From Paraspadella gotoi (taxonomy: Eukaryota; Animalia; Chaetognatha): 64,000 nt of DNA. The DNA is taken from the NCBI GenBank assembly GCA_051294375.1, contig CM119263.1, positions 21,309,154 through 21,373,153 of the forward strand. Reading direction: 5' to 3'. A model generated the notes under the pieces. The model searched no databases and had not been told where the DNA came from. It worked only from the letters and a program-made list of their open reading frames with translations. Below are positions 484 through 44,923 of the stretch, in pieces; position 1 is the stretch's first letter, and each line of letters begins with the position of its first letter. A program made the translations under genes and the position numbers.

Positions 484-3400
484 GTTCCTTCGGAGAAGAT
501 GCTGCAGGCCGGCTGCATCCTCAAGATGCTGCTCATGACGAAATCGGCGCATTTGCTGCACGACTCCAGGATACGATCCAAGCAGAGTTCGCAGGTGGAC
601 AATGTGGCGATGTTGGCGCTGTTGAAGCTATGGAATAAAATCCACCAACCGTTCATCAGCGGCCATTGGTGCCGGAGGCAAGTCATTCGCCTCCCAACCC
701 AAAGGTCCGGGGTTCTAGCCCGGTGGTCGCCTAGCAGTTAAGAGGGATTGGGTGTTAACCCGCCTGTAACACGGTGTTACAGCCTGATCCGAACTCCGGG
801 ACTGCTTATATTGAACGGTTCTGTCACTACACATAACAATAATTACTGTCTCTTCATAGCTCTCGTTTTTTGTTGTTCTTCCTTCTCATTGATATTTCTG
901 TGGTCAAAGAACCTCGTCGGCACCGAGATGGTGGACTGGCTGCTGGCGGTGAAGGAAGGGACGGCGAACACCGCGTGACAAAGACATGAGACGCCAAGTG
1001 TGGGGATGTGGCAAGCGCTCATGGAGCACGCGGTCATCAGTCACGGTGAGGGTGTTCATGTTCAGTGTCCACTGTCCAGTCTGCTGATAAAAAATCAATC
1101 AGGAGATGGATGATTTATTTGAGCCACCAAGTCGTGTCTTATCCTACAGTGAGCCGAGACTACCCTTTTGCCGACAAGTTCGTCTTCTTCCATTCACCAT
1201 CGACTCTGAAAAAGTTCGAAGAAATCAAAAAGGTTATTCAACGAATTGATTAAATAATTAAATAATTAATTATTAAATAATAAAAATAATTGATTAAATA
1301 ATTAATCAAAAAGTTTATTCAAACGAATTGATTAATATATTAACTCGATAGTATTACTTAATCCAAACCCGACTTTTCGGCCTTGAACTCACCTTTCTCC
1401 TCACCTCTCGATCGCCAGGAGTCTCGTCGGAAGCCCTGGAGTCGAGAGCCAAAGAAGCGATCAAGACGCTCAAGCTGGCGGGACCCGACGCTCTGCTGGG
1501 TCGGGCGCTGCGGAAAGTGCCAGCCAGCGGACGTCGGAAGACGTAAGGAGGATTTTACTTAATTAAGGATGTGCCGTCTGATTAGCTAACTCCAGTTGAC
1601 GCGCTGCCTTATTTTTAGAGAAAGTTTATTTTAATGAGAAAAAGTTTATCGTCGTTAAAAACTAGACCTGATTTAATAATGATAAAAGTATTACAACGCC
1701 ATTTCGCATTCATCACTGATAACGTATGGTAAATAGAAGTTTCTTCCTCTAGATTGATATCTCACTACAAGAGCTGCTGCATATAAAGGCTCTGTCGCAT
1801 CTCTCCACGATGGTGAACGAGAACTCGCCTCGGTCTTCGTCTTCGAATCGCGACCCAAAAACGGGACGGTGCTCTTCAGTCAGGGTCACAAAGGCACCAG
1901 TTGGTACATCATCCTGTCCGGGTCCGTCAATGTAGTTATTCATAACAAGGTGAAGAATCGGTTTAATTTTAACGGTTTAAGGTTAATGGATTATTATTGA
2001 TTTATAATTTCATGATTGATTTATATCGATTTATTTATTGATGGAACTTTTTTAACGTAAACCTTTATTGATGCATGATCGTTTTTTTTGTTTTATAGAT
2101 TGATTGATTGACAGCTTCGTTAATTGATTGATTGATTGATTGACTGATTTATCCTTTGACTGATTGACCATTATTGATTGATGCATCGACTGATGTGTTG
2201 ATTGAGTGATTAAAATTTTTTGAATCGCACTATCGTCTATTGATGTTCAGGGTGTTGTCTGCACTCTGGAAGAAGGAGACGACTTTGGCAAATTGGCTTT
2301 GGTCAACGAAGCGCCACGAGCTGCCACCATCGTCCTCAGGGTAAGGATTTTTATCGATAAGGATTTTCTAATCTGTCTAATCCGATCTATTCACCTCTGG
2401 TGCTGGGGCGTAGGAGAGAGAGTGGCGAGGATGAAGGAGAGAGAGATGGGGGATGAAGGAGAGAGAGAGTGGGGGGAGGAAGGAGAGAGAGAGTGGGGGG
2501 AGGAAGGAGAGAGAGTAGTGGTGGGAGGAAGGGAGAAGATGACATATATGAATAATTCATTAATTACCTTCAGGAGGACAATTGCCACTTTCTCCGCGTC
2601 GACAAAGAGACTTCAACCGCATTTTACGAGACGTCAAGCCAACACCGTCAGACTCAAGGAACACGACGTGGACGTGCTGTTGCTGGAGAAGATCCCGGCC
2701 GAGGCGTCGCCGCCGCATCGCGGTGAGAAGGCGGTTGGTGTAGGGCAGTTGAGCGACTGACAATTAGTCTGACATTTAAACTGAACTCAAGATTAAAATT
2801 ATCATTTCCTCTCCCCATCCTCATTATTCTATCTTAGCTTCGGCACCCCCTCTCCCGCGGCCTCACGCAAATCTTCCGACACAAAGTTCGCCGACCAACT
2901 TGGCGCCGCCGTCGACCACCTCGTCCGGCGCCGCTGGCGTCTCGCCCTCCAACACTCTTGGCGTCACCGGCGCCTCCAGTCTGGCGCCGGCGCCGCCAAC
3001 GCCCTCTCCAAGAGCGGCGGGCATTACAAGTATTCGGTTGTGGCGGGGACCCCCGAGAAGATGTTGGAGCATCTCTTGGAGACACGTTTGGTGGTTATGC
3101 CAACGGAGTCTGCATGGTCGACAGATCGGGTGAGTTGATGACGATAAATTAACAAAATAGCAAACAAACGAACAAAAGAGTAGTGCTGTTAGAGGGTGAT
3201 TGTTGATGGGTGATTGTTTTCTCCATCAGTGCAAGAAGTTTTTGGAGAATGAATGGATTAAAAACCCACTTTTAAAAAAAATTTCAGTGTACTTTTATAA
3301 TTTCAGTAAAAAGTAAGCTTAGTCAAAATTGGATATTTTTTTGTTTAATTTTGACGCCATTGGAACCTGTTTTTTATATAATAAAATAGAAAGAGAAAGA

Positions 3401-13275: not shown

Positions 13276-16200
13276 TCAAACATTCGTCAAGATTCGTTCC
13301 AGAGGCGACTTTGATTTTCCCTCTTCTTCCTCCCCTTCCCCTCTTCCTCCTCTTCCTCCTCCGTCCAACTCCTTCCCGTACAACGCTTGTCGTCCCAAGT
13401 AAGCCTCTCGCTTGAGGCCGAGCCGGACGTCGTCGGGCACGTCGGGCACGACCCAGGCAAGGGCGTCGCGGACGAAGTAGACCACGTGTTCGAAGACGAG
13501 GACGAAGACGACTTTGGCCAACATCACGTGGAACCAGGTGGTCGTCCGAGCGTAGGAGGATGAGGAGGGGGAGCGGTAGTCGCGGTAGAAGCAGGTGCCG
13601 TTAGGAGGCTTTGGACGGGGGGTGGAGTGGATGGTTGTGGAGTGGAATGAAAGGGGATGAGATGAAGATTAGAATTATACCATGATGGAAAAAAAAATTG
13701 TCGCGGTTTGAAAATATCGGTTAATTTCATTGTTAAAAATATTTTTTGGCCATTAAATAGGTTTTATTATGTAATATGACTTCCTGAGGACTGAATAAAA
13801 ATATTATTTTCTAATAGCATGAAATTATTTATTGCATACAATTACTTCCAAAAGAGGTTGTCTCTAACTGTTTTCACCTCTTTTTGATCAAGAGGAATAC
13901 TAATATCATTATTAATATTATATCTCTGACATAATATTTTTTATCAGATTTTGGGCAAAAATTGGTTTTTGGCAAGCAGTAAAAAGGATTGATCCGCTAT
14001 AAAGTAAACCAGTGCATAATAGGATTTTGGATTGTTTTTCCCTTCAACAAAATCTTTTTTTTTTGGACTTGTTTGATACTTCGTTCAGATATATCCCTAA
14101 TGGTAAAAAAGTCCTGTTCTCATTATTGACCACAAAGTTGGCCAGAAAATTTTAACAATCAAAAATATATGCAACATGCAAAGAAGATTTTTTTCCCAAT
14201 TATTATCGTTATTTTACCATGATAGAGAAAAAAATTGTCGCGGTTACTTTCCAGCTATTTTTTGACATTTTAATTTGAAAAATAAAAAATAAAACTTACA
14301 TATCATCAACAGATATAAGACTGCAGCTCTCCTCGCACCATATTCTCCACCATGGAAGCAGGAGACTCAACCATCAGCAGCCTAGGCAGGAAACGAAGCC
14401 CACGAGGCTCACCGGACTATGGACCGAACAATAGAGGCTCTTTCAAGCTCTATGACCACAACAGGCCTAAAAACAGACTCAGTTTGGCAATACTTCAATG
14501 ATATTGAGAAACTTTGGCCTTTTGTGATTCATATGAGCTGTGTCTCATTTATGTACGACAAAAAATACAAAAATTCCATGCACTTTTTTATTAATTTCCG
14601 GTTCTTTTTTATTACTTTTTGAAAGGAAATTAACCAACTTTTCCAAACCGCGACAATTTTTTTTTCCATCATGGTACAAATCTCAAGGATCTTACAGTGT
14701 TTAAAAGCATGACCTATTTACAGCTCATTAACTCCTCAACCACCGCCCCTCACTCCCGCCCCCAACCTCACCTCCACGCCCCCCTCCGGCCGAGTCGCCG
14801 CCGTGAAACTCGTCGCGTTAAATTCTGAGAGGGAGAATCTCGTGAATCCGACGAGGGCGCCGCCGCCGGACGTGAGGCGAAAGTAGAGGCTTTCGACGAA
14901 GTTGGAGGTGAAGGCGATGACGAGGGCGTTGGTGATGACGGCGAGATTGGCGATCGAGGAGAGGATGGCGAACCATGCGCCAATGTTGCGGACGAGTTGG
15001 GGGCGTGGCCGGCGGAGACTGAGGGTTTCAATATATGGTTTAAAATAATTAAAGAAACGTTAAATACAGACATACAGAAATATACAGAGATATATAGTAG
15101 AGTATGAAAAAATCAAGATTACTTTTATAACTACTAAATTAAAATTAATATTACAATCATTCAAAAAATGAATATACTTTAAAATGCTACTTAAATGATA
15201 AATGTTAGTCATAATAGAATATTAATATATTTATTTTTTAAATAGAATGATACGTTTTGGTGAATTTGTTGGCGTCGAGTCTAATCTCGATCACGTTGTT
15301 GATGAGAGCGAAGACGGGCGCCAAGGGGAAGGCCGTGACAAAAAGAGTCACGAAACCGAATTGGATCACCTGAGGGGAAAGAGAGGGTGAGTAAAGGAAT
15401 AAATCACGAGACCGAATAGATGTGTTGATAAGTGGGCTGTTTGTTTATTTAATGATTAAATATTTTTTAAATTGGTTGTGCAAATTTAATAATTAAGCTA
15501 TATATAAAATCAAAAATCAACCCCACTGACTAACCATCTCCAAATACTCGTCGAACAGCCCCAACTCCCCGACGTCCGTCAGCGCCAAGTCGCTCTCCCA
15601 TCGCGTCTTCGTCTCGACCTTGACGCCACCGTCTCCAGTCACCGGCGCCACCTCCGCCGACTTGCGACGACAGCGCCACTCGCGCCACCAACTCCGAATC
15701 AGCGGAATTCGCGGCTGTAGAAATTCGAGAAAGTTCATGAAGATCTGTTTGCCGACCATGATTATGAACATTTGGATGAAGAGTTCGAGCAGGCAGCCGG
15801 CAGGGTCGCAGGCGTCGTAGCGTGCTGGGGAGACGGCCTGAAAAGGGGGTGAAGATGAGGGGGTTGGTGGAGCTACTTAGTGTCAACAGAGTAAATATTG
15901 TGAAAAAATCCTAAAAGAATAGTGATCTCGATAGACGAGAGGAGGAAATAAAGTAATAAAAAAAGAAAGAAAAAAATTTATGCGATGATAACCAATAACC
16001 AATAATTGATGCGATGATAACCAAATGATTGATGCGATGATAACCAAATGATTGATGTGATGATAGTCATTCATTGATGGATGATAATCATTCATTGATG
16101 CGATGATAGTCATTCATTGACTGGATGAATCATTCATCGTAAATAAAACAAACAAATGCGTGTATGAGTGAGAGTGAAAGAGAAAGAGAGAGGGAAAGAA

Positions 16201-17128
16201 AGAGAGAGAGAGAAAGAAAGAGAAAAAACGTGACGCAGAGGCAGACAACGACGATGACGACGTCACAAAGAAGTAAAAGCGATCCAAAATCGAGATAACA
16301 AACAAACTCGTGTATGAGTGAGAGAGAGAGTGAGAGAGAGAGACAGAGACAGAGAGAGACAGAGACAGAGAGTGTACAAACACTTGCGGGTTCGTGCGAC
16401 TTCAAAATAGGGAATTTAATTTGACACCGTTTCCAAACATAAAACGTATTCCGACTAAATCTTGGAGCCATAAAATAAATCCACAAAAATCTCGGATGTA
16501 AATTTGATATTTTGTATTGAGAAAAAAAAGCGGAATAAATGGCGATAAAAAAGTTTTTAGAAGGAAAAAAATAATCAGAGAGAGAGAGAGAAAGATAGAG
16601 AGAAGCTGGACAGCCGCTGGACCGCCGCTGCAAAGCTGACCTCTTTTAAAACGAATATGAATAGGGTCGAATTCCTTTCCTTTCTATAAATAAATATTAA
16701 AAAATAAATATTTTGGTATAGAGCCATATAAGAAAATTTTTGTACATTGAAAGTATTCTTAAAAATGTATAAATTTTTGTGTTTTCACACTAAATTTTTG
16801 ACTCACCTCATTGAGAGGGGCTACCCCTATTCAGAAGAAAATAAGAGAAAAAGAGAGCAACATATAATTAAATGAGAAAGAGAAAGTAACATATAATTAA
16901 AAGAGAAAGAGAGAAGCTTGACAGCCGCTGGAAAGCCGCTGGACAGCCGCTGCAGAGGTTTTTACACGAATCAGAAGAAACAGCAACGGAAAAAAGAGAG
17001 AGAGAGATAGCGACATAAAATTAAAAAAGAGAGAGAAGCTGAATAGCCCCTTTACTTGTCCATGAAACAGCAGTACCTATGGCGCTAGTGGTAGCGCGAG
17101 TTCCTCACAACATAAAGGATTCGGGTTC

Positions 17129-17159
<31 letters not shown>

Positions 17160-20100
17160 GGGAGTAGTCCTTGTGTGTAACGGCCGGTGAACTGCTCGCG
17201 TCATCGTCTTCTACATTGGTGAGCCCACAATATAAATAAATTTTTTTTTTTTTTTAAAGAGGGGGAGAAAGATAGCAAGAGAAAGAGAGAGAGAGAGAAA
17301 GAAGCTGGACAAACCCTGCAGAGCCGGAACTCGTTTTTAGACAAAGCAGTGACGGAGAAAAAGAGAGAGAGAGAGCGACATATAATTAAAAGAGAGATAG
17401 AGCGACATATAATTAAAACGTTTTTGTTTTGTAAATAAAACATAAACAAATATGAATATTGATATGAAACATGACAATTTCAAAGATCTTGATGATTAGA
17501 AGCCATATCTAAATTTTCAACTCCCTATGATATCACACTTTCTATAGCCATGATGGTAAAAAAGCGTGACGCAGACGCCGCCGCCGACGACGACGACGAC
17601 ACAAAGAAGCTGGGCCTTCGCTTAATCTCGCCAAGACGGGCCTTGGCGCCTTTACAAGTGTACAACTATCAAAAATATATTTATAAATTTGTTTGATTGA
17701 TATTTGACTTGGTAGAAGTTGAGTTGACAATCCGGTAAAGTGAGGCCACTAATTAAGCTTCACTCACCGACTCAAAGTCTGACTCACAACTCACGTGAAG
17801 CTCGTCGGAATCTTGAAAAAATTCGTGAAATCGTCCTTTAAAGAAGGCGATGTAAAAGATCGACGCATAAAAGTTGACGAACTGAAAGCAAAACATTTTG
17901 ACGGTAAAGGAATCTTCGTAATCCTTGTCAGTTCGCTGATTCTCCATCCGGGTCAACTTCAGGGCGAGGATCCCGTAGAACTTGTTGAGGATCATGATGA
18001 AGACGAGATTGAGTGTGGCCGAAGTAATCGTCACCAGGATCTTGGAATACTCCACCACCTGAAGGACCTAAGAAGAGGGTAGTAAATTTATGATTAATAC
18101 CCTATATCTAGGCTTAATAGTGAGTGCTAAATACTAGCATTTATTTTGGTTTGTGTTTCATTCGAAGAATGGGTATTTTTAAATCGCCAAAACAAAACAA
18201 ATACTTAAAAAATAGTTTGTTTAAAAAAAATTTCTCAAGGACTCTTCAAAAAATCAAACAAAAATTTCGTCTTTTATTTAATAAATTATCAGGAAGAAGC
18301 ACAATAAAAATAATTTTATAGCAAGATGCATATTATATTTTTTGTTCAATTTTTTTAACGAAAATTAATGCGGAGATGATAATCGATATCTCTTAAATTA
18401 ATAATGTATCTGAGGCCTGAGTTAAGTCGCCTCACTTATATAGATTGATCTATCGTTTTAACTCCATCCGAGTCATCAATCCGAAATGACCTTACCCCAA
18501 ATTCACCTCCTCACCCACTCGTCCTCACCTCTTTGTCCGTTGCTTCCTTCCGCAGCTGCCAAAACGCGACCCGCACGGCCCCGCGATAAACGATGACGCC
18601 GACGATGGCGACGAGGACGCAAATGACGGCGAGAACAACGACGGCGACGCCGGAGAGATAACGCGGTAGGCGCGCCCAGGGCGGGAAGTAGGGCTCGAGG
18701 ACGTGGGTGACTGGATTTCGGCGTCTCTCGCGACAGCGCGCCTCAAAATCGGGGCGGAAGCTGGAAAAGCGGATAAGGGATGAGTTGGGTAGGTAAATTT
18801 AAAACAAAATCTTACCCAAACAAACGTTATACCAACGTTATACCAAAGTAAATCAACCCGAACCAACTAATAACCATAAAAAAAATTTTAAAAAAACGGA
18901 AAAAAATAGCCAAAACTGATCCAAAACACAACCAAAACAAACAACTGACTTGCTCTCGTCCTCGAAATCCTCGAGGAGATCCCATTGATAGGCGATCCTC
19001 GCCTGACGTCTTTTCCAAAACTCGAGAAACAAAACTGACCAGACGGACATAAAGAAACAAAAGACAATCGTGAATTCGTTGTCGACAAGATGGACCAGTT
19101 TCGAGTAGAAGCAGGAATTCTATGATAATCGAGAAGAAAAAAAATTAAATTCCAAAATCCAAATGACTAAAAATAAAGAATGAATAAATACACAAATGCA
19201 AAATAAATCAATCAATCAATCAATCAATCGAACCTGCAATTTCCAAAAAGGGCAGAATGGCTCCCTGCACTGGGGACACATTATGAGATTCCCGTCGACG
19301 GAGTCATCGCAAATCTCGCGCGAGGCGACGGAGGATTCCAGCGTTGCAACTCCGTAAGCCGTCGCCGCCAGCCCCAGCAGCGCCGCGGGAAAGAGGAAGC
19401 GCGTGTAGAATCCCAACCAGGCGAAGTAGACGGCGACTTTCTCGCCAAAGTATCTTGGCAGATTGAAGAGACATGGACAATAGAGTGATGTGAAAATGAT
19501 AAAATTTTAGAAAATTAAAATTTAACATATAAAACATGAACATAAAAACTATTAAAAATACTTTGGTAAATTTATTTTTTAATTTTATACATTAGTGGTC
19601 ACCAGTGAGCTATATTTATATATAGTAATAAGTATATAATAGGCTAAAATTTTAAAATGCAAATTTTCAAATTTTAAGACCGATTTTCAATTTCCAGCTT
19701 AAAAATATAGTTTTTTGTAATTTTAACCTACTTAATAACATATTTTTTGAAAAAGATTTATATTCTTTTATCAACTTTTAATGAGGAATCTAAATCTGTT
19801 CTCAGAATTTAAAAAAAAAAATTTTGAAATTTTGACATTATATAAGGGTAGTACTATATACAAAATAAGCTGACTGGGCTACTATATTTATAAAAAAAAA
19901 TAACTACAGATTAGTATTCACTAATATGATAGTTTTCACGATATAACTGCTAAATTTCAATTCCAAACTTTCACTTCACCCTAATGGACAATCAGAATAT
20001 TTATCATTTTCAATTTTACTATGTATACATTCAAGGCGCTAAAATCATTCCAGAATCTTCTTCCTCTTCCGGAATCCTCTTCCTTTCTGAATTTTTATTC

Positions 20101-21924
20101 ATCTGTGATGATATATTTAAATAATAAATCGTTCCACCACATACTTTCTGACGAGATTCAATGGTTGCCGCTTGTAGAAATATTTGAAGTTGCCCCAAGT
20201 GTGATAGAGACGTTCACGGTCAGAGATAGGGACGCCGGAGAGCGTGGTGTCGGATGCTAACGACGCCGCGACGCCGGTCGACGGTGACGCCGGAGCTGGG
20301 ACGATGGCGGCGTTGAACGCCTCTCCGTCGTGAAGAGAGAAAGCGGCGCTAAAATCGCCGATGTTAATCAACTGTTCGATTCCGATTTTTCGCTCCTGAA
20401 AATCCGAGGTTGGGTTCAAAGATAATTATTACAAGGAAGACTTTTGACTTGAGCTTATACATAATTTACACACAATTAATACATTATACAGTAATACATA
20501 ATTTATACCTAATTCATATTTTTGATAAAACTATGGAGAGATATGCGATATTTGTAACTAATTGTAACAGTTTTTGATATTTAAAAAACAATTTACTTAT
20601 TGTACTTATTTTAGTTTCTCTATTTATTTCAGCTACATTACATAGCTCTATAGTCTATACTCATCAACGCCCAGGGAACAAAACAATACTGTAAAAAAAC
20701 GTTAGAATTTAGAAAAAGAATTAAAGGGTTTTCGGCGAAACTTAGTGATTTTTAAAAGTGATTTTGCGTCTCGTATCGTCAGCGCCTCGCATCGCATCGC
20801 GCCATCTCATATCTCTCGTCTCTGTAGCGTCGCCGTTTTACCTTACCCTACCAACGTATTTTTTACAGCAGGTTTTACTGTAAAAACAAATTTACAAGTT
20901 AAAACTCAATTATAGATTGGTTTAAGAAAATACAATAATATGCAAATGAAATTAATCGTTTATTATAAAAATTTAAAACCAAAATCATCCCGGTGAAGTC
21001 AACGGCCAACATCCTAAAAAACTCCGCCCATGCCTTACCTTTTCCTCCTCTTGGTAAGGTGCCCTCGCCAAGGCGTCGTACACCAGCCGCACCCGCTGAG
21101 CCGACGAGAAAAAGTTTTCTTCGTCGAGAATCCGGAAAACGTCGGCATTTTGTCGATCAAAAGCGAGGGTGTAATAGTCGGTCTCGCGCTCCTCGGGAAC
21201 GAGGCGCGGGTCCACGTCGAAGGCCGCGTCGATTCGCCGCAGCGCGCGACGGATGGCCTCGCGGCAAAGCAGCGCGCTGCAGCAGCACTCTTCCGCTTGA
21301 ATGAGGTCGTCGTCGAATATGGCGTCGTCGTCGGAGAGACGAATCGGCATCTTCAATCGGAGCATCTCCGCGCGGAGGCAGAGGACCTTGAACGTAAGTT
21401 AAATGTGAATTTTTTTTGTGTGTGTGTCGACCTGCATTGTGAACTCGCTGCGATTACACCCGTACCGTATCCGAATGCGATGAGGTCAATCTCGCCCATC
21501 CACATCCTCATCTCACCTCAAAAGGCGCGTGGACTTTGACGAACTCTTCGCCCGTCTCTGCCTTCGCCGACTCCACCTGAAGCCCGAAGCGGCTCGTCAA
21601 CGTCTCCAGAAAAAAACGGCGTCGTCTGCTTCTCTTCTTTTCCTCTTCCTTGTTGTTATCTTTTATGAAAACCAAAATGTAATCGATCTTTCGAACCCCG
21701 TCGTCGAAACGAACGCCGGTTTTGACTGCGTCGGGGGCGCCTTTGCCGACAGTGGCGGCGCCTGTGATGCCATCAACGGCGTCGGAAAGAAGTTGTGCGG
21801 GAAGATCAAAGTCGCTGCGGTAAGGGTCGTCGAGGGAGGCGGCGTCGCGAGATGCGGCGTCGTCGGCGTCGTCCGCGAGGTATGCAGCGTTGAATTGGGC
21901 GCCGCCGCCCGCCTGACGAGACAT
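13276..21924 (-). CDS. Anoctamin/TMEM16 family Ca2+-activated channel/scramblase, 11 coding exons, ~965-975 aa, nested in Epac intron 3
   Basis: Exons 21924-21517, 21386-21039, 20395-20145, 19453-19234, 19119-18950, 18760-18529, ~18058-17795 (alternative sites 18067/17768), 15837-15535, 15369-15254, 15018-14772, 13608-13276; all GT-AG and phase-consistent. Motifs [106 protein letters not shown]. Confidence 0.95.
13680..14674. mobile_element. MITE with ~50-bp TIRs and TA TSD, in the last anoctamin intron
   Basis: TA|CCATGATGGAAAAAAAAATTGTCGCGGTTTG..GGTTAATTTC and GAAATTAACC..AAACCGCGACAATTTTTTTTTCCATCATGG|TA; an extra internal left end near 14217. Confidence 0.85.
15900..17640. mobile_element. 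Composite family-B HINE-like repeat region in an anoctamin intron
   Basis: Reverse-complement similarity to 53110-54567 (ATTGATGCGATGATAACC units, GCGGAATAAATGGCGATAA, CTGGACAGCCGCTG blocks). Confidence 0.55.
17048..17229 (+). mobile_element. Degraded tRNA-derived element (A box TGGCGCTAGTGG, partial B box GGGTTCA), right end ..CCCACA
   Basis: Pol III boxes followed by a poly-A run; right terminus is the reverse complement of TGTGG as in the twister elements; no TSD found. Confidence 0.35.
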
Positions 21925-22338
21925 CTGTTGGGAAAAATCTAAATCAAAAACAAAACGCTAAGAAATAGATAAAATTATAAAAACTATAGACGAGATGAAT
22001 TATCAAATTATAAATATTTATATACGAACCTCAGAGAGTAACAAAAAATAACATTTTAAAATGTTATCGATAAAAAAATCAGCGTTCAGAAAAACAAAAT
22101 TCAGAAAAAAAAGGTCCACACGTCGGAACCACATGGAGCGAAGTGATGGACAGACGACTCGTGGTCGATCCGGAGTTCAGCATCTGGTTAATGATGTCCC
22201 GGATAAGATTTCTTCTAATCCGTAGGACTTATCTTTTCGATTCAAATGGACGAAATTTCATGTCAAAAAAATCTTAAAAGCATATAGGATCGAGCCTGCC
22301 TTTGATGATAACCAATTCATTGACGAGATGAGCCAATT

Positions 22339-22923: not shown

Positions 22924-23570
22924 TTAGTCGGTTCTGCTTATCAGCAGATCCCGACTCTATAATTCACTTTGTCCGTCCGTCGGTCCGTCCATCCTACCTT
23001 AGCAAAAAACACCATTTACTCATGATTGGATGGATGGATTTGAATGAAATTTTGTGTGTTGGTAGGGAAGTGTGTGATTGAGCTGGATATGATGTTTCGA
23101 TGGAATCGTCCAAGTGGAAATGAGTTTAAATGGAAAAAACAAAAAAATATATTTCACTAACACCAATTGCTCATGAGTGGATGGGGCGATTGACTTTGAA
23201 TTAAGCTGGAAATCAAGTTTCGATGGAATTGTCTTAGTGGAAATGAGTTTAAATAGAAAAAACAAAAAACCTGTTTCATTAATTGATTATGCTTCTTTTT
23301 CCTTTTATATCAAAAGTAAATGCAGGATGTATTAATTAATGAAATAATTAATCAATTAGTCAATTAATTAATAAATAATTAATTAATCAGTCAATAAATC
23401 AAGTCAATCATTATTGGCATTATTCTCATCGTCGTCATTGCTTTTGTCGTGGTTAGTGACGAAAAGACCTAAAAACAAACAATTAATTAACTTGAATAAT
23501 TTAATTATTAATCAATTATTTACCGATAATGATCGTGGGCAGATCCGACATTGTTTGCTCAAACTTGTTT
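22924..23570. mobile_element. Family-A DINE-1/HINE-like non-autonomous Helentron
   Basis: Subterminal inverted repeat GTCGG(A/T)TCTGC/GCAGATCCGAC, short inverted repeat at one end, (GTCC)n microsatellite, terminus ..AAACTTGTTT, T-rich insertion site; four more copies in the window. Confidence 0.75.
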
Positions 23571-23579
23571 TTATACACG

Positions 23580-23812
23580 TATGGTGGACTAAAATCCACC
23601 AACCGTTCTTCAGCGGCCATTGGTGCCGGAGGCAAGTCATTCGCCTCCCAAAACAAAGGTCCGGGTTCTAGCCCGGTGGTCGCCTAACAGTTAAGAGGGA
23701 CCGGGCGCTTAACCCGCCTGTAACACGGTGTTACAGCCTGATCCGAAGCTCAGGGACTGCTTATATTGAACGGTTCTGTCACTAACACATAACAATAATT
23801 ACTGTCTCTTCA
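23580..23812 (+). mobile_element. Family-1 tRNA(Gly)-promoter + twister element, copy 2
   Basis: Perfect TSD CACG|TATGG...CTTCA|CACG; tRNA-like 23613-23683 (acceptor GCGGCCA/TGGTCGC, TCGCCTCCCA anticodon arm, B box GGTTCTAGCCC). Confidence 0.92.
23687..23760 (+). ncRNA. Putative type-P5 twister ribozyme (family 1)
   Basis: P5 CAGUU/GACUG; GG-GA-(C)CGGG; UAA-CC; GC; P3 CUGUAACA/UGUUACAG; P4 CCUGA-UCCGAAGC-UCAGG; T1 UCCG:CGGG; T2 GC:GC; predicted cleavage 23710|23711; P1 and P2 are minimal. Confidence 0.7.
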
Positions 23813-23939
23813 CACGTAACATTTCCGTTGCCATCGAAACGCGTTATTAGGTCATGTTCCTCGACATTGTTTACTCGTTGCCCCGCAACGGCCACGAAAT
23901 CAAGGTCAAGTAAGTTATTCGTCACTTTTTCTAAAAAAA

Positions 23940-24705: not shown

Positions 24706-25527
24706 AATTAAGAACTTTTCCCGTCGAAGTTTGGTTGCTTAAATTTGTTTCCAAGATAAGTTGAACCGGGTCCTTCGCTTCGTTGTCATGAGCCGGGATG
24801 TATTTTTTTTTTTCAATTAAAAAAATAATCGTCAATATTCGATGAGAAATTAAGAAAAATCGTTACGCAATTATAATACCAACTGTACTTTGTAGTAAAA
24901 AGTAAAAGGAACCAGAATAAAATATTTAACTCCTAACTAAACTAATAACAGTTTTTTTAAAATACTTTTTAAAATGAAATTTAAATTTGGAAAATGAAAG
25001 TGAAAACAATAGACTCATCGGAAAGCGAGAAATCTGAAAGTCACAAAAGAGAGACAAATGAGGACATTGAAGAGCCAACACGAAAAAAGTAAAAAAAGTA
25101 AAAAACAAGTTTGAGCAAACAATGTCGGATCTGCTCACGATCATTAGCGCTATTTAATTATTTAATACAAACTATATAAACTAAAAAAATATTTTAATTA
25201 ATAAATTAATTAATTTTATCCGAAATGTTTTTAGATCTTTTCGTCACTGAACACGACAAAAGCAACGACAACGATGATGGCGACGACGACAATAATGCCG
25301 TTAACGATTGTCTTGATTGATTGATTAATTGATTAAAAAGTAATTAATTTATAAATAAATTGATTGATAGAATAATTAATTAATAGATAACTAAATAAAT
25401 TGATTGATTGAATAATTAATTGATTGAATAATTAATTGATTGATTAATTGACCGATTAATTAATTATTTATTAATTAATTAACTAATTGATTAATTCACT
25501 GATTATTTATTTGATTAATTAATACAT

Positions 25528-25778
25528 TGTGGCAGCAAGACTTAAAGTTGCCTCACTGCTGTCCATCCTCGTCTCAATGGCTGAGCAGGCTAAATCATCT
25601 CATTCCATCCGTGTGTCCCGGGTTCAATCCCTGGGTATCCCGGTTCTGACTTAAATGTGACGGTGCCGGTATAAACATGCCAGTGACAGGAGGCGGTCAC
25701 TGAGGGTCCGCAGCCCCTACACCAGTTGGTGAGATACCCCGCGCCCCGGTTATCACAGACTATCCTCCCGTTGCCATA
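25528..25778 (+). mobile_element. Family-2 tRNA(Gly-like)-promoter + twister element (solo-LTR-like)
   Basis: TSD ACAT|TGTGGCAGC...GTTGCCATA|ACAT; imperfect terminal inverted repeat; A box TGGCTGAGCAGG (25578), B box GGTTCAATCCC (25621); interrupts a HINE copy cleanly. Confidence 0.85.
25645..25725 (+). ncRNA. Putative type-P5 twister ribozyme (family 2)
   Basis: P2 AUGU(25655-58)/ACAU(25675-78); GA then CGG; short P1 hairpin; UAA (25672-74); GC; P3 CAGUGAC/GUCACUG; P4 AGGG-UCCGCAGC-CCCU; T1 CCG:CGG; predicted cleavage 25672|25673. Confidence 0.78.
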
Positions 25779-28489
25779 ACATCTTGCATATATATTTAAT
25801 ATAAAAAGAAAAATAAGTTTTTTTTCGTTTTTTTCATTTAAACTCATTTTCATATCCAGCTTCATCTCACACTGTCCTACCCACACACAAAATTTCATTC
25901 CAATCCAACCAGCCAATATCGAGTTATTGGAGCTTTTTGCTAAGTGGGACAGATGGACGGATTGATTGACTAATTAAGTAATTATTGATTAATTAATTGA
26001 CTAATTGATTTATTAACTGATTAATTATTTGATTTATTAATACATCCTTCATTTACATTTAATATAAAAGAAAAAGAAGCATAATCAATTAGTGAAACAG
26101 GTTTTTTGTTTTTTCCATTTAAACTCATTTCCACTCAAACGATTCCATTGAAACTTGATTTCTAGCTCAATCACACACTTTCCTACGCAAATACAAAATT
26201 TCAAGTCAATCGCCCCATCTACTCTTGAGTAATTGGTGTTCAAATAGTGAAATTTATTTTTTTATTTTTTCCATTTAAACTCATTTCCACTCGGACGATT
26301 CCCTCGAAACTTCATATCCAGCTTAATCACACACTTCCCTACCCACATACAAAATTTCATTCCAATCAATCCATCCAATTGGAGCTTTTTGCTAAGGTGG
26401 GACAGACGGACAGACGGACAGACGGACATCGTTTTTTTTTTTTTTTTTTTTTTTTTTGCATAATTTATCATAATTTGATGTTCTGACATGACATAAGTGA
26501 ATTTCCGACAAGATTGAGGATGCGGACCGACGGTCAGACAAAGTGAATTATAGAAAAAAAGAAAAATAGAAAAAAAAAGGGAAAAAAAAGGTGAAATTCT
26601 GTTGCGAGTTTTTGGCTTCGTTGCGCAGGAAAACTTTTCGCCGTCGATGCGACGAATTCGCGAATGAAAGAAAACGAGAACGAATCAAAAAAAAAAAAAA
26701 AAAAAAATTGAGAATGACTTGAGAATGGACAAACTTGAGATAGAATTCAACAATGAATTCTAGAACAAACAAGACTGAAATTGAACGAACCTGAAAATGA
26801 ATTACCAACTTGACACACTTGACACTTGACACTTGACACACAACTTTACACAACTTGAAAAAGTCTGACGACTTGCAGTTGATAAAAGAAATGTTTGAAG
26901 ACAAAATATAAATTTATTTATTAAGTGAAAGTGATTGAAGAAAAGCACAACGTATTAGTGCAAGAACATCCAAAAAAAAACGAAAAAAACAAAGTGCGAC
27001 GTAAAAAGCAAATTTGCCACTGACGCCGCAAACAAATCGACCGGTGAAGCGACGACGACGACGACGACGACGGCGATGACAACAACGACGGAGAGGATTG
27101 CACAGCAAGATTCCAAAGCACGAATTGAAGATAAAAGAGATGCAAGTTGTCGGACTTGTCAAGTGATATGACTTCAACCTCATTTTGAATGGTTTCCTGA
27201 GATAAAAGATTAAAAGTCACGAGAGTTAAGTTAGGAATGTTAAAATATTTGCTTTCCCCGGAATGGAAGTGTATAATTCAGTTTTTCTGGTCAGTTTCTT
27301 TATGCAAAACTTAACAACTGGAATTTAAAAAAATGGTAAAAATCTAGAATATATTATAAACTTCATGAGGACTTAAAAACAAATTTAAGTATCGATATGC
27401 AGTGAATATTTTTACTTTTGTTATAATCCTACTGAGAAAAAGCTAAAAAAATTACAAAAGAGCAAATACGTACCAAGTAGATTACTAACCTAACAAACTG
27501 TGGGCGGGAGAGAGAGAAAAATTCGGTAAAAATTATATATATATATATATTAAGGCGGGCCAGAATTTAATATCTTTTACGATATAAATAGTCTGCAATA
27601 AAAATATTTTGTCCTTTTCAAACCAAATTGACTTATGATGTTAGATTTTGATTAAATTAATTTTCTTCATGCGTGGGAGCATTTTTTTATTTAATATGCC
27701 AGGTTCACTAGGAGTGAATAAACAAGACTGTGAGAGAGTCTTGATTGAAAACTTGCAGAAACCTGCTATGTTATTATCTTGTAAGTGTGATAAAGGCCTT
27801 AAACCACCAAAGCCTGTCCAAATTTAGGGACAAGATAGCTTATTTATTAAATAAATGGATAATTTTGATATTGATTGTACCAATTTTATATAAGAAATGC
27901 TAAAGAAAGAGTGAGAGAGAGAAAGAGAGAGAGGGCAAAGTTTCCAACACAGAGTTGAGAAAGGATAGAGCTCAAAGTGAGCTGCCCAAGTAGCCGCTGA
28001 TGCAGTTTCTCCCTCCATCCCCCAGGAGGCAGAAAGGGAGCTTGCTGCTGAAGAGCCAACCGCGCCCACCACAGCGCAAATGAAAGATAAGCAGAAGCGC
28101 CCTAAGAACGTGGGCCACTTGTCCCTCCCCTACCACCAGGGGATCACTGAGTTATTGGTGATATGATATGATAATAATGATAATAAAATAGAGAAAAAAT
28201 TATTATTTTATTTTATTTTTTATTATTTTTTCACAATGTTTGTTTTAATATTTGTTTTAACTTAACTTACTTTTTATTTAGAATGGATTTTAGCTTTTTG
28301 GAAAAAAAATATATTAATAATACACGTACAGCAGCATACGTCTAGAATTTTTGAGACGGCAAACTCTGTAACTCGAGTACAAATAATAATTTTAAAGAGA
28401 GCTTTTGTCTTGATATGGCTACTCCCCCTTCGGTAAGCTATTGCTCTACGACAAATTTTGGGACGTCAGAACTTATGGTTAAAGGTAAC

Positions 28490-29044: not shown

Positions 29045-29971
29045 AAACAAGTTTGAGCAAACAATGGCGGATGTGCCAACAATAATTAAGCGGTAATGAG
29101 CTAATCCGATGATAAATCATGGTAATTTTTCTGACTCTCAATTTGGATTATAACAAATCATAACAGACTTCTTAATAAATCTATGAAAAAATCTATAAAT
29201 CAATTGATCTATCAATCATTACCAGAAGCTGTGCCAACTTGCATAATTTGGTCATCTTTCATAATTTCATCAACTTGCATAATTTGGTCAACTGGCTTAA
29301 TTTGGTCAACTGTCATAATTTGGTCAACCAATATAATTTGGTCAATTGGCATAATTTGGTCAATCAATCAATAAATCAATAAATCAATCAATCAATTAAT
29401 CATTCAATCAATCAATCAATCAATCAGAGAGAGATAAAGAAAAACTTTTAATAATTGACATAAATATGTCTTTTGGTTTTCTGTTTTAAACTGTTTTCCA
29501 CTCCTACGATTCCATCAAAAACTTTTATCCAGCTTAATCACATAGTTTCCTACCCACACACCAAATTTCATTTCAATTTATCTATCCATTTTTAATAAAT
29601 AAATAATTATGAGTAAATATAAGTAAATATGCTTCAAGTAAATATGACTTTTATTTTTTCCATTTACACTCATTTACACTAGCACGATTCCATCAAAACT
29701 TTATATCCAGCTTAATCATACACTTTCCCATCCACGCACAACATTTCAATCCAATCCATCCATTCAATCATGAGTAATTGGAGTTTAATGCTAAAGGGGA
29801 TGGATGAATGGACGGATGGACAGACGGACATCATTTTTTTTTTTGCATAATTAATCATAATTCATGTTCTGATATGATAAAAATCATTTACCGACAAGAT
29901 TATGGGGTAGACCGACGGACGGACAAAGTAAATTATAGAGTCGGAATCTGCTAATAAGCAGATCCGACTAA
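29045..29971. mobile_element. Family-A HINE-like element containing a 21-bp tandem array (~29235-29365)
   Basis: AAACAAGTTTGAGCAAAC start, GCAGATCCGACTAA end; CAACTTGCATAATTTGGT-type units. Confidence 0.75.
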
Positions 29972-30321
29972 AAGGAAAAGAAAAACAAAAATTTATATTA
30001 AGGTTTTTGAAATTTAAACTAAATTTAACTAAGACTTCGACGCGGAATGGAATGGTAGAATTGAAATCCCACTCAAGGTAAATTTTTACAATAAACTGCA
30101 ATGTCCCAAAAGTGGTCTTAGAGCAATGGCTTACCAAAGTGCTCGATAACAAGACAAAAACTCGCTTTCAAATTATCATTTGTACTCGTATTACAGATCT
30201 AGCCGTCTTAGAAATTCTAGACGGATGCTACTGTACCTAAAAGGCGACAGATCTATTTTACTTTTTTAGCTCTTTCTCTCACTCACTCACTCACTCACTC
30301 ACTCACTCTCTCACTCTCTCT

Positions 30322-31087: not shown

Positions 31088-33610
31088 ATACTATAGTAGA
31101 AATAATTACAAATAAAGTACAAATAATTTTTTTTAACTATTATTTTTTTTTCACTTGCTTTATTTTTTTACTCGCATCATTTTTTAATTTGCTTCATTTT
31201 TTCAACTTGCTTCACTTTTTCAACTTGCTTCATTTTTTCAACTTGTATTATTTTTTTCAACTTGCATCATTTTTTCAACTTCCATATTTTTTTAACTTGC
31301 ATCATTTTTTTATCTCGCTCTATTTTTCTAACTCGCCTAATTTTTTCAACTTGAATAATTTTTTTCAACTGGAATAATTTTTTCAACTTGCATAATTTCT
31401 TTAACTTGCATAATTTTTTCAACTTGTATAATTTTTTAAACTTGCATAATTTTTAAACTTGCATCAGTTTTTTAACTCGCATCATTTTATTAACTTGCAT
31501 AATTTTTCAAATTTGCATCATTATTTTTAACTTGTATCATTTTTTTAACTTGCATAATTTTTTTTAATTTGCATCATTTTTTTAACTAGTATCATTTTTT
31601 CAACTCGTATCATTTTTTCAACTTGCATCAATTTTCTAACTTGCATCATTCTTTCAACTTTCAACTTCATCTTTTAACTTGCATCATTTTTTCAATATGC
31701 ATAATTTTTTTAACTTGAATCATTTTTTCAAATTGCATCATTTTTTCACCTAATTAATTAATTAATTTAAAACATTCATGAGTAAGCATAAATATAGAAC
31801 CAAATTCCTAAACTCGATCCCAAACCTTTTTTCATAATGTTTTTATATTTTCGGATAGAGAATAACTGGAATAATGTAAATCTTAAGTTACGTCTAAATT
31901 GGCCCATGGGTTTAGAAGAAATTGATCAAAAACAACCAAAGTTCCTCTCCCTTTTTTCAACATTCTCGCCTTTTAAGATTTTTGCCGATTCTGACTTCCT
32001 CTTACAAACTTTAATTTCGCTAGTTAATTTTTTTTACTTTTTTCTGGTGGAAAAGAAAGATAAATACTTAGGCTGTGATGGGGTGAATAATATTTTGTAG
32101 AATTTTGTAAGCATGCTTGTAATATCAGTCAAGTAAATATTTAAGTGAAATAAAAATTATAATTTATTTATCCAAAAAACTTTAAAGTTTTACTAGAGTA
32201 CAATGTAGCCTTTTTTCTTTCAGAATCACTAAAAAGAATTTAATTTTCATTTATTTTTATGGGGTTTCATTAGTTTTAAAATTCATTATAATTTTGACTT
32301 AGTTTGACACTCACCCTGTAAAGAGGTTTCAGCAAAAATAATTCTAATATTGTAACTTGTATGTGCCAAATGATTATGGCTTCATTTTGGTACTATTGCC
32401 ATCCCTGTATCTTTGTTCCTTCAAAAGATATCAGGAAAAATCAGTTTTTTCTCTCAACCTTCCTTTTAATTTCTTATTAAATAAAAATTTCACTGTGTCA
32501 AACCAGACCAATGGACTTTACCACGTTGGTTTACTATGAAGAGTTTGGTCAATAATGAAAAGAAAAATTTGACAAGCTCTTGAGACAAGAGGCTTTCTAA
32601 ATCTCATAATTTGAAGTAATATTTATAATGTTAACATACCCTAGCCCCGTTTACAATTTTCGAAAAGCAAAATTTCCCATTCATTTCTATAGTAAAAACG
32701 AGGTTTGAAAATTCTCCGGAGATGACTAGTGCATTTCCCCTGGCTTGTTTGATATTATTAAATCCTTTAACAAATGCCATAAGACAAATTTGACTAGCTC
32801 TTAAGATATAACGCTATCGGAATCGTGCATTTTTACAACTGTTTTTACCCGAATTTCTGGCAATCGCATTTGCAATTTGAATAATCAGATTTTAACGGAA
32901 ATCTCTTTAAGAAAAATGTTGAATTTTTTTTAAGCGAGATTCGTCAACTTGACTTTTTGTTTTTTCCATGCAAAGTCATTTCCACTCATCCATTCCATCA
33001 AAACTTTATATCGTGCTCAATCACACACTTTCCTACCCACACACAAAATTTAATCTCAATCTATCCATAAATTATAATTATTTCGATTAATTATGGATTA
33101 AAAAAGATTAAAAAAGATTCAAATAAAAGTGATCTATGTTTTTCCATCTAAACTCAATTCCACTGGCACGATTCCATCTAAACTTTATATCCAGCTTCAT
33201 CCCACACTTTCCTACCCACACACAAAATTTAATCTCAATCTCACCATCCAATTATGATTAATTCGAGTAATTAAGGGTTAAAATTAGTAAAAAATATTTA
33301 AGTTAATGTGACTTTTGTTTTTTTCATTTAAACTCATTTCAACTCGCACGATTCCATCGAAACTTTATATCCAGCTCAATCACACAATTTCCTATGGTCC
33401 TACCCACACACAAAATTTAATTCCAATCCATCCATCCAATCACGAGTAATTGGACGGACGGACGGACGGACGGACGGACAGACGGACAGTCATCTTTTTT
33501 TTGGCTTATTTAGCATAATATGGTCTTTTGATGTGATAAAAATGATTTACCGACAAGATTTAGGGGTGGTACCGACGGACCGACGGACCGACGGACCGAC
33601 AAAGTTATTT
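30933..33610. mobile_element. Family-A HINE-like element (expanded) with a ~20-bp tandem array at ~31150-31745
   Basis: Same left end; roughly 30 degenerate TTTTTCAACTTGCATCA units; (GGAC)n near the right end. Confidence 0.6.
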
Positions 33611-34591: not shown

Positions 34592-34800
34592 TATGGTGGA
34601 CTAAAATCCACCAACCGTTCATCATCGGCCATTGGTGCCGGAGGCAAGTCATTCGCCTCCCAACCCAAAGGTCCGGGGATCTAGCCACGTGATCGCCCTA
34701 TCAGTTATGACGGACGGGGCACTTAACCCGCCTGTAACACCTTGTTACAGCCTGATCCGAAGCTCAGGGACTGCTTATATTGAACGTTTCTGTCTCTTCA
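34592..34800 (+). mobile_element. Family-1 tRNA+twister element, copy 3 (3' internal deletion between CTGTC repeats)
   Basis: Perfect TSD AATT|TATGG...CTTCA|AATT; twister fold 34701-34774 with GA-CGGG pairing to loop UCCG. Confidence 0.9.
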
Positions 34801-38809: not shown

Positions 38810-39427
38810 AAACAAGTTTGAGCAAACAATGTCGGATCTGCCCACGATCATTATCGGTAATTAATTAATTAATAATTAAATAATTCAAGTTATTTAATTA
38901 ATTAGGTAATTGATTAATTAATTTGATCCGAAAGCAATGACGACGATGAGAATAATGCCGATAACGATTGATTTGATTTATTGACTTATTAATTAATTAT
39001 TGATTAATTAATTGACTAATTGAATAATTAACTTATTAATTATTTGATTAATTAATATACTTTGCGTTGACATTTAATATAAAAATAAAAAGAAGCATAA
39101 TCAATTAGTGAAACAGGTTTTTTGTTTTTTTCCATTTAAACCCATTTACACCCAAACGATTCCATCGAAACTTGATTTCCAGCTAAATCATACACTTTCC
39201 TACCCACATACAAAATTTCAGGTCAATCGCCCCATCCACTTATGAGCAATTGGTGTTCAAATAGTAAAATATATTTTTTTTGTTTTTTCCATTTAAACTC
39301 ATTTCCACTCAGACGATTCCATCGAAACTTTATATCCAGCTCAATCACACACAAAATTTCATTCCAATCCATCAATCCAATCACGAGTAATTAGTGTTTT
39401 TGTTAAGGTGGGATGGACGGACGGACG

Positions 39428-39462
<35 letters not shown>

Positions 39463-39633
39463 TGACTGACTGTCAGACAGACAGATGGACGGATATCTTT
39501 TTTTGCATAATTTATCATAATTCGATGTTCTGACATGATATAAATGAATGCCTGACAAGATTGAGGGGGCGGACCGACGGACCGACAAAGTTAATTATAG
39601 AATTGGGATCTGCTGATAAGCAGATCCGACTAA
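38810..39633. mobile_element. Family-A HINE-like element (full length)
   Basis: AAACAAGTTTGAGCAAACAATGTCGGATCTGCCC ... GATCTGCTGATAAGCAGATCCGACTAA; reverse orientation relative to 22924-23570. Confidence 0.8.
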
Positions 39634-39636
39634 AAA

Positions 39637-40452: not shown

Positions 40453-40686
40453 TATGGTGGACTAAAATCCACCAACCGTTCGTCAGCGGCCATTGGAGCC
40501 GGAGGCAAGTCATTCGCATCTCAACCCAAAGGTCCGGGGTTCTAGCCCGGTGGTCCCCTTGCAGTTAGGAGGGATGGGGCGCTTAACCCGCCTGTAACGC
40601 GGTGTTACAGCCTGATCCGAAGCTCAATGACTGCTTATATTGAACGGTTCTGTCACTAACACATAACAATAATTACTGTCTCTTCA
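40453..40686 (+). mobile_element. Family-1 tRNA+twister element, copy 4
   Basis: Perfect TSD CCAC|TATGG...CTTCA|CCAC; twister fold 40561-40634 (P4 3' strand mutated to TCAAT). Confidence 0.92.
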
Positions 40687-44090: not shown

Positions 44091-44923
44091 CGAATGGTTT
44101 GGGTAAGCGATTCGATAGAGACTTTGTAATAATTCGGAGTAAAAATTCTAAATTTAACTTGAATAAAAATTCTAAAAGTAAGGAATGAACAACATTATAC
44201 TAATGAACATTTATGTATAAAAAATTTTATAATAAATTTTACAATTTACGCAGCAGGCCATATTTATACTAATACTAATCAAATTAAATGTTAAAATTTC
44301 AAAATAGTTTTTTGTAAGATTTTTTTACAGATTTGGATTCGTCATGAAAAGTTGTTGATTAAAAATTGTTCCAATAAGTTGATCAAATATAATAAAAACC
44401 TAACCTAAAATATAAAATATAATAAAAACCTAACCTAACCTGAAAATTAAAATTTTATATATTAAATATATTTTTTTAAATTTTTAACCCACTTAATGAA
44501 AACAATTTTAAAAATGATTTATATTTTCTTCTATCAACTTTTGACGAGGAATTCAAATCTGCAATCAAAATTAAGAAAACCCTATTTTGAAATTTTTAGA
44601 TTTTATAAGGATAGTACTATATATAAATATAGCCTACTGCAAAAATTGAAGAACATAAATAAATTTTTTTTACAAATTAATATTCACTGATGGTATGTTG
44701 TTCATAATTGACATTTAGAATTTTCCTCAGTATGTAACTTTCACTACGCTCTAAATGGAGAGTCTTAATTGACAGAAGTTGAGGAGGGTAAGGACTTTTT
44801 TTGGAGTGGTGAGGTTGAGACGCGGTCTTGGGTGGAGGATGGGGTTTGTGATTGGAGGGAATTTGTTTCTTTGTGATTTCCATTTTATTACCCGATACCG
44901 AAGTGAAATTTCTGCCGTGAGAA

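What the first reader, a model, noticed from the sequence alone, without database searches (positions are those of the whole stretch)
25528..25778. Second, sequence-unrelated family with the same tRNA + twister architecture and full covariation
Seen: ACAT TSD, TGTGG..CCATA ends, 5' hairpin, A/B boxes with a TCC (Gly) anticodon-like loop. The twister helices all differ from family 1 yet still pair: P2 AUGU/ACAU, P3 CAGUGAC/GUCACUG, P4 AGGG/CCCU. The core residues (UAA, GC, GA, UCCG..AGC loop, CGG partner) are retained. Inference: structure has been conserved while sequence diverged, which argues the ribozyme is functional and the architecture is an old, diversified lineage rather than a chance fold.
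Basis: partly seen in the sequence, partly recalled or inferred. Interest (0 to 1): 0.85.

Follow-up and report, generated by a model that had tools for sequence, protein, structure and literature searches.

The report
Animal jumping element carrying twister ribozyme
This 251-base stretch is one copy of an abundant mobile element in an invertebrate genome that joins a tRNA-type promoter to a predicted self-cutting twister RNA; it is likely the lone end-repeat (LTR) of a small retrotransposon that would copy itself through circular RNA, a combination I did not find described.

Summary
Observation confirmed, with corrections. 25528-25778 is an insertion with an ACAT duplication. Empty sites exist in the window and in sequencing runs, and the family is multi-copy. 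The descriptor matched once in the window and never in 20,000 element shuffles. All catalytic and mutation-intolerant positions are kept, and the one odd base (C25711) is tolerated in published mutagenesis.

Corrections: 'full covariation' is 6 double changes in 14 alignable pairs between two families only. The families are distantly colinear, not unrelated. The Gly anticodon arm does not fold. This copy has lost pairs that most copies keep.

Fixed ends, 4-bp duplications in 5 of 5 window copies, a promoter 40-50 bases inside the 5' end and catalytic residues upstream of the cut argue against an ordinary SINE. They favour a solo LTR of a Helenus-like element working like a plant LTR retrozyme. 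No two-LTR copy, primer site, transcript or cleavage was seen, so the mechanism is about 50% likely.

The parts
25524..25527 (+). 5' target-site duplication ACAT
   Evidence: a single ACAT at empty paralogous sites 26042-26045 (+) and 23327-23330 (-); joint 25523->25779 with 4 shared letters in runs X1, X2, X9
25528..25778 (+). Family-2 element, 251 bp, likely a solo LTR; ends form an imperfect 9-bp inverted repeat (7 Watson-Crick + 2 G-T); no run of 3 T on the sense strand
25531..25552 (+). 5' hairpin upstream of the predicted Pol III start (U3-like part, inferred); most copies have C at 25548, where this copy has a G-U pair
25571..25641 (+). tRNA-derived head: box A 25578-25589, box B/T arm 25617-25635; no acceptor or anticodon stem
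25646..25650 (+). Twister P5, 5' strand (3 of 5 pairs in this copy; most copies carry G at 25649 and 25721, with which all 5 pair)
25655..25663 (+). P2 3' strand AUGU, general-base G25659, A25660, T1 partner CGG
   Evidence: numbering from the mutant header
25664..25671 (+). Minimal P1 linker (2 pairs + 4-base loop); varies among copies at 25664 and 25671
25672..25680 (+). UAA with predicted cut U25672|A25673, P2 5' strand ACAU, T2 GC
   Evidence: cut position by analogy with PMC8501958 section 17
25681..25702 (+). P3 hairpin, 7 of 7 pairs
25703..25718 (+). P4 (4 of 4 pairs) with L4 loop UCCGCAGC; C25711 stands where the rice ribozyme has A28
25721..25725 (+). Twister P5, 3' strand
25730..25757 (+). 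3' hairpin (8 of 10 pairs here; most copies have G at 25750, which pairs with C25737)
25779..25782 (+). 3' target-site duplication ACAT
23580..23812 (+). Family-1 sister element, TSD CACG
630..856 (+). Family-1 copy, TSD AAGC/TAGC (one mismatch)
34592..34800 (+). Family-1 copy with a 3' internal deletion, TSD AATT
40453..40686 (+). Family-1 copy, TSD CCAC

Best explanation
The stretch is one copy of an abundant 251-bp mobile element flanked by a 4-bp duplication, and is likely the solo LTR of a small non-autonomous LTR retrotransposon (Helenus-like) whose LTR carries a tRNA-type promoter and a predicted type-P5 twister ribozyme. Inferred cycle: in a two-LTR parent, Pol III would start near the tRNA head of the left LTR and read on, since the element has no T-run terminator. 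The twister in each LTR would cut at the site matching U25672|A25673. The unit between the two cuts would be ligated into a circle by a host tRNA ligase and reverse-transcribed from a primer site by a Gypsy-type helper. The helper's integrase would insert it with a 4-bp duplication, and recombination between the LTRs would leave solo copies like this one. Shown: insertion, fixed ends, multi-copy state, sequence anatomy. Inferred: promoter use, cleavage, circles, the two-LTR parent, the helper. This particular copy is probably decayed and weaker than the family's typical member.
For: 4-bp duplications of differing sequence at 5 of 5 copies in the window, all with complete 5' ends. Empty sites in the window and in runs. 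Sharp ends with heterogeneous flanks: family 2, 17 contigs at 25528 and 25 at 25779 in X1, flank agreement 0.47 and 0.44; family 1, 150 contigs at 23580 and 236+55 at 23812/23813, agreement 0.42-0.43. Animal Helenus have a tRNA-like sequence in the LTR and 4-bp TSDs; some Helenus families (fungal examples are named) survive only as fragments and solo LTRs (PMC10886601). Plant LTR retrozymes have 4-bp TSDs, ribozymes in the LTR and solo LTRs (PMC4918200). Box A lies 50 bases (family 1: 41) inside the 5' end, beyond the usual Pol III start (recalled: about 10-20 bases upstream of box A), so the 5' hairpin needs a second copy to be inherited. G25659, A25660, the T1 partner and half of P2 lie upstream of the cut, so a cut linear RNA alone could not pass the ribozyme on. 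PMC5786205 makes the same point for SINEs. The four positions intolerant to all changes in the rice twister (G13, G30, A46, G48; PMC5113685) are kept, and A28C has relative activity 1.00 (my reading of the supplement matrix). Of the 6 single-base positions where the majority of run depth differs from this copy, 4 improve helices (25548, 25649, 25721, 25750). Neither family's intact copies have TTT on the sense strand (P about 0.04-0.07 each); the Helenus LTRs I read mostly have a T run after the tRNA.
Against: No two-LTR copy, primer-binding site or polypurine tract was seen: 0 of 5 window copies. For family 2 none of the 15 joints shown (12 not shown) goes back from end to start. For family 1 only 3 contigs in X1 do so, about what neighbouring copies would give by chance (my estimate). 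The ends are TG..TA and TA..CA, not TG..CA, though a Helenus LTR ending in ATA exists. Family 1 has no terminal inverted repeat and a short P2. No reverse transcriptase or integrase among 101 window ORFs. Rfam score is far below threshold; the family-1 model gives only E 0.3. The twister fold is 9-14 kcal/mol above the minimum-energy fold in this copy, pseudoknots not counted, with P2 probability 0.0; the whole element folds no better than shuffles (z 0.31). Absence of TTTT alone is not unusual (P about 0.5).
Confidence: 0.5

Rival explanations
1. The 251-bp unit is the whole element: a SINE-like or Sm-alpha-like Pol III retroelement copied from tandem masters through cut-and-ligated circles or uncut RNA, and inserted as monomers with fixed ends.
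For: All 5 window copies are monomers; flanks in runs are heterogeneous; schistosome SINE-like repeats combine a Pol III promoter with a hammerhead (PMC6765202; PMC4918200).
Against: Animal non-LTR retrozymes are tandem and have TSDs larger than 4 bp (PMC7229834). No head-to-tail joint without spacer appears among the joints shown. There is no simple-repeat tail and no 5' truncation among the 5 copies. The promoter lies well inside the 5' end.
Confidence: 0.25
2. A real mobile element whose twister-like fold is an inactive or weak relic, or has a structural role only.
For: The fold is not the minimum-energy structure in this copy; P1 is minimal; family 1 has a 3-base P2; Rfam 19.8 bits; no covariation within family 1.
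Against: Both pseudoknots and every catalytic residue are kept in two families with about 50% identity. P1 is dispensable (PMC5408937). A28C is tolerated. The majority letters repair P5.
Confidence: 0.15
3. A non-autonomous DNA transposon with a 4-bp duplication that carries a captured tRNA-twister cargo.
For: 9-bp imperfect inverted ends in family 2; fixed ends.
Against: Family 1 has no inverted ends. A cut-and-paste element gives no reason to keep a promoter and ribozyme through divergence.
Confidence: 0.07
4. A chance twister-like fold in a tRNA-derived repeat.
For: The descriptor was written after seeing the site; library scores are not significant.
Against: 0 of 20,000 element shuffles and 0 of 400 window shuffles. 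Among 78 distinct sequence-pattern matches (viral contigs plus the window), only the window's has both P2 and P4 at 4/4. The same core sits at the same place in family 1.
Confidence: 0.03

Closest known systems
Helenus TRIMs (TRIMp3; Kojima 2024, PMC10886601)
   Same: tRNA-derived A/B boxes inside an LTR-sized unit (104-323 bp in animals per Table S1), set back from the 5' end; 4-bp TSD in animals; probably non-functional tRNA; solo LTRs common.
   Different: No ribozyme reported (0 'twister' in the main text; six L4 8-mers gave 2 hits in the supplement, both in internal parts without twister context). The Helenus LTRs I read mostly end shortly after the tRNA with a T run and TG..CA ends; here about 140 bases follow, with a twister and no T run. 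Internal part not found here.
Plant LTR retrozymes (Cervera 2016, PMC4918200)
   Same: Ribozyme inside the LTR, 4-bp TSD, solo LTRs, Gypsy helper and circular RNA model.
   Different: Plants; type III hammerhead, not twister; no tRNA-type promoter in the passages read; LTRs about 330-350 bp; full elements and circles demonstrated there, not here.
Schistosome SINE-like hammerhead repeats and metazoan non-LTR retrozymes (PMC6765202, PMC7229834)
   Same: Pol III/tRNA sequence plus a small self-cleaving ribozyme in a 200-400-base animal repeat.
   Different: Tandem arrays, hammerhead, larger TSDs; here dispersed monomers, twister, fixed 4-bp TSD.
[quoted passage not shown]
   Same: Twister core with UAA, GC, L4 and GA motifs in an animal retroelement.
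   Different: Type P1, at the element's very 5' end with the TSD next to the cut; here type P5, mid-element, with catalytic residues upstream of the cut.

Membership tests
Twister ribozyme (type P5) | Stems P2 and P4, pseudoknots T1 and T2 | tested here: met
   4/4, 4/4, 3/3 and 2/2 pairs; descriptor controls
Twister ribozyme (type P5) | Conserved core residues (N|AA, GC, G-A, U..AGC) | tested here: met
   All present; C25711 replaces A28, tolerated in Osa-1-4
Twister ribozyme (type P5) | Ends located in a P5 stem, P1 closed by a loop | tested here: met
   P5 has 3 of 5 pairs in this copy and 5 of 5 with the majority letters; family 1 has 6-7 of 7. P1 is only 2 pairs.
Twister ribozyme (type P5) | Rfam twister model at gathering score | tested here: not met
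   No match at gathering score; best is twister-P1, 19.8 vs 67.2 bits
Twister ribozyme (type P5) | Site-specific self-cleavage | not testable with these tools
   needs an assay
Helenus / TRIMp3 | tRNA-derived A and B boxes within an LTR-sized unit | tested here: met
Helenus / TRIMp3 | 4-bp TSD (animals) | tested here: met
   5 of 5 window copies, one with a mismatch; empty sites
Helenus / TRIMp3 | Two LTRs around an internal part with PBS and PPT | tested here: inconclusive
   Not seen in the window or among the joints shown; contigs collapse shared sequence and the tables are cut; no genome held
LTR retrozyme | Ribozyme in the LTR is a hammerhead | tested here: not met
   twister core; no hammerhead match
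LTR retrozyme | Circular RNA between two cuts accumulates | not testable with these tools
   only contigs were available; no holder on record as RNA
tRNA-derived SINE (SINE2) | 5' end at the tRNA head | tested here: not met
   43 bases (family 1: 34) precede the tRNA head
tRNA-derived SINE (SINE2) | Simple-repeat or A tail and variable-length TSD | tested here: not met
   fixed 3' end, 4-bp TSD in 5 of 5

The most novel reading that the evidence does not exclude
These are the first animal LTR-type retrozymes: a diversified lineage of Pol III-driven elements in which a permuted twister replaces the terminator and yields circular RNA. Possibly they need no internal region at all, with the roughly 250-base unit itself being reverse-transcribed and integrated with fixed ends, a route not described for SINEs, TRIMs or retrozymes in the papers I read.
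Probability: 0.3. Interest if true: 0.9.

Novelty: new variant of a known kind. Interest (0 to 1): 0.72.

Why it matters
It would join three separately known things in one element: Pol III TRIMs, LTR retrozymes and twister ribozymes. It would give type-P5 twisters a concrete job in an animal genome. It also offers an answer to how a Pol III LTR element ends its RNA in the right LTR without stopping in the identical left one. Two diverged, very abundant families make this directly testable by a cleavage assay, circular-RNA RT-PCR and a genome-wide search for two-LTR copies. The elements would also confuse tRNA and SINE annotation and could cut host transcripts when inserted in sense.

Tried and rejected
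No whole genome is held, so copies could not be collected or run through R-scape.

Collection scans: the family-2 20-mer in metagenome contigs gave 1 hit, L001, a chance match in GC-rich bacterial-looking sequence. The family-1 21-mer gave 0 in viral contigs and 1 isolated match in a Rhodobacter genome, L106. The family-2 22-mer gave 0 in viral contigs. A loose twister pattern gave 104 viral loci, none with P2 and P4 both complete.

Expression: no RNA holder listed. X9 and X10 are only guessed to be RNA and are contigs, so they are not used as evidence. Summed depth is no copy number (tool's caveat).

The type-P1 reading in Rfam's alignment (GGUAU/AUACC as P1) was rejected: its P2 is broken and it has no T1 partner. 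The Gly isotype was rejected for family 2. The sequence-only family-1 model did not find family 2 at E up to 10. Other hits of the structural model (e.g. 27774-27839, E 0.054) lack the core on inspection. MAFFT did not put the two families in structural register, so cross-family pairs were counted by coordinates.

Folding was done on this copy only, so whether typical copies favour the twister fold is open. Hunchback searches placed the host only among protostome invertebrates. Earlier scan findings: nothing by place or sequence; one unrelated SINE note.

Full report
Setting. The window is from an invertebrate animal. It has cyclic-nucleotide-binding exons near 1.8-2.8 kb, an anoctamin gene on the minus strand at 13.3-22.0 kb and hunchback on the minus strand at 45.0-52.5 kb. 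The protein hits do not narrow the host beyond protostomes. The element lies between anoctamin and hunchback, inside an AT-rich repeat. No genome is held.

It is an insertion. ACAT flanks 25528-25778 on both sides. Two paralogues of the host repeat in the window carry a single ACAT: the left flank aligns to 25960-26045 at 88% and the right flank to 26042-26079 at 85%, and likewise at 23327-23330 on the minus strand. In public runs, contigs join 25523 to 25779 with 4 shared letters. In that,042 contigs were laid in the two DNA runs, a count that includes host-repeat flanks; 99 contigs per run show the commonest letter at 25721. Summed depth (about 0.3-0.8 million, against 80-220 for the long single contigs listed) suggests thousands of copies, but the tool warns that depth is no copy number. 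Family 1 has four copies in the window, each with a 4-bp duplication (AAGC/TAGC, CACG, AATT, CCAC). It drew 16,171 and 11,763 contigs, with sharp ends and heterogeneous flanks.

The ribozyme motif. The strand order is P5, P2', G-A, T1', short P1 loop, UAA, P2, GC, P3, P4 with L4, P5'. This is the type-P5 permutation described in PMC5408937 (parts 1-2 of 7 read). Pair counts in this copy are P2 4/4, P3 7/7, P4 4/4, T1 3/3, T2 2/2, P1 2/2 and P5 3/5. A descriptor found this site alone in the window, in 0 of 400 shuffled windows at P2 4/4 and in 0 of 20,000 shuffles of the element; it was written after I had seen the site. Rfam gives only twister-P1 at 19.8 bits, E 0.19. Mapped on the rice ribozyme numbering in the supplement of PMC5113685 (whole text read; supplement passages), A7, A8, G13, C14, U24, G30, C31, G45, A46 and G48 are kept. 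The outer T1 pair is swapped to G-C, which that paper says is generally tolerated. A28 is C; I read the A28C single-mutant value as 1.00 by counting columns (the same count gives A28G 0.48, matching its tabulated 0.39/0.821). P1 is dispensable (PMC5408937 abstract), although PMC8501958 section 17 calls cleavage without P1 inefficient.

This copy versus the family. At six positions the majority of depth differs from the window (25548, 25565, 25614, 25649, 25721, 25750), and many contigs carry 6 more bases after 25566. Four of the six improve helices: the 5' hairpin, both damaged pairs of P5 and the 3' hairpin. In family 1 the majority letters at 23687 and 23702 likewise complete P5 and T1. So the genomic copies are decaying from structured masters, and there are no compensatory changes among the four family-1 copies. 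In this copy the twister-compatible fold lies 9-14 kcal/mol above the minimum-energy fold, pseudoknots uncounted, and a rival hairpin (25640-44/25665-69) hides G25659 and T1'. The whole element folds no better than shuffles. This counts against activity of this copy and leaves the family's typical member untested.

Covariation. Between the family-1 copy at 23580 and this one, P3 has 2 of 7 pairs changed on both sides, P4 3 of 4 and P2 1 of 3, with one family-1 P2 pair unpaired and the fourth absent. T1 and T2 are the same (with for the T1 majority). That is real but is one comparison. The families are colinear (score 97 against 52 +/- 10, max 86 of 300 shuffles) though invisible to blastn. A covariance model from family 1 alone finds family 2 at 13.2 bits, E 0.3, the second best hit outside family-1 loci among 19 listed; a sequence-only model does not find it.

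What kind of element. The tRNA part is only a promoter remnant. Four features argue against an ordinary SINE: a fixed 4-bp TSD in 5 of 5 copies, fixed ends without tail or truncation, 34-43 bases with a hairpin in front of the tRNA head, and a ribozyme whose catalytic G lies upstream of the cut. PMC5786205 (passages) notes that a ribozyme behind a SINE head causes 5' truncation. These features fit an LTR. Helenus elements (PMC10886601; text parts 1-4 of 6, supplement parts 1, 7 and 11 of 11 and two supplement searches read) carry tRNA boxes in the LTR, make 4-bp TSDs in animals and often occur as solo LTRs. No ribozyme is reported for them, and those I read mostly have a T run behind the tRNA. 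Plant LTR retrozymes (PMC4918200 and PMC7761336, passages) carry a hammerhead in the LTR, make 4-bp TSDs and form circles. The simplest joint reading is a Pol III LTR element whose twister defines the RNA ends. The missing piece is the parent: no primer site, purine tract or two-LTR copy was seen in the window or in the joints shown, and the 3 family-1 contigs that run from end to start fit chance adjacency. Contigs collapse shared sequence and the tables are cut, so this is weak evidence of absence. The main rival is a monomeric Sm-alpha-like element (PMC6765202 and PMC7229834, passages; the original Sm-alpha and twister discovery papers were not read).

Novelty. Ten full-text searches returned no paper describing a twister with a tRNA-type promoter in an LTR or TRIM. 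The library lacks most subscription papers, Repbase was not available, and the unread parts of the Helenus supplement were covered only by motif searches that can miss line breaks. PMC7761336 mentions unpublished truncated twisters at the 5' end of RTE elements, and PMC8501958 (abstract, section 17, passages) shows type-P1 twisters at the 5' end of Perere-3; both are a different arrangement. PMC9901934 and PMC10085705 (passages) added only background. Verdict: a real, new variant combining known parts. My estimates: the twister motif is genuine, about 0.85-0.9; typical copies cleave, about 0.7; the unit is an LTR, about 0.6; the whole mechanism, about 0.5.

Noticed in passing
window 22970-23570, 25250-26555, 29462-29973, 32954-33584, 38810-39635: A multi-copy AT-rich repeat with short internal tandem units; it hosts the family-2 insertion and abuts the family-1 copy at 23580.
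   Followed up: partly
window 45052-52473 (-): Multi-exon hunchback gene with N-terminal, central and C-terminal zinc fingers.
   Followed up: partly
window 13279-21957 (-) and 1758-2757 (+): Anoctamin exons, and cyclic-nucleotide-binding exons that look like Epac (name recalled from the sequence).
   Followed up: no
run X10 on window 25550-25727 and 23579-23630: A run labelled as a second organism holds one low-depth contig of each family at 90-95% likeness: a close relative or contamination.
   Followed up: no
window 23580-23812: Family 1 has an intact acceptor stem and a CCC (Gly-type) loop, a 7-bp P5 and 5-bp P4, but only a 3-base P2 strand; 3 contigs in X1 and 2 in X2 run from its end back to its start with unknown sequence between, and are candidates for two-LTR copies.
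   Followed up: partly
window 25664 and 25671: A minority subfamily (51-65 contigs in X1) differs in the short P1 linker.
   Followed up: no
window 25541-25547 and 23590-23594: Both families have a TAAA motif in the loop of the 5' hairpin, 20-30 bases before the tRNA head; possibly an upstream element for Pol III (speculation).
   Followed up: no
window 1-458: Near-perfect inverted repeat, 1-171 against 290-458 at 98.8%.
   Followed up: no
window 44166-44724: Long imperfect palindrome, with a related piece at 19703-19864.
   Followed up: no
window 23823-23832: Ten bases identical to the family-2 3' end lie just after the family-1 copy at 23580; probably chance.
   Followed up: no
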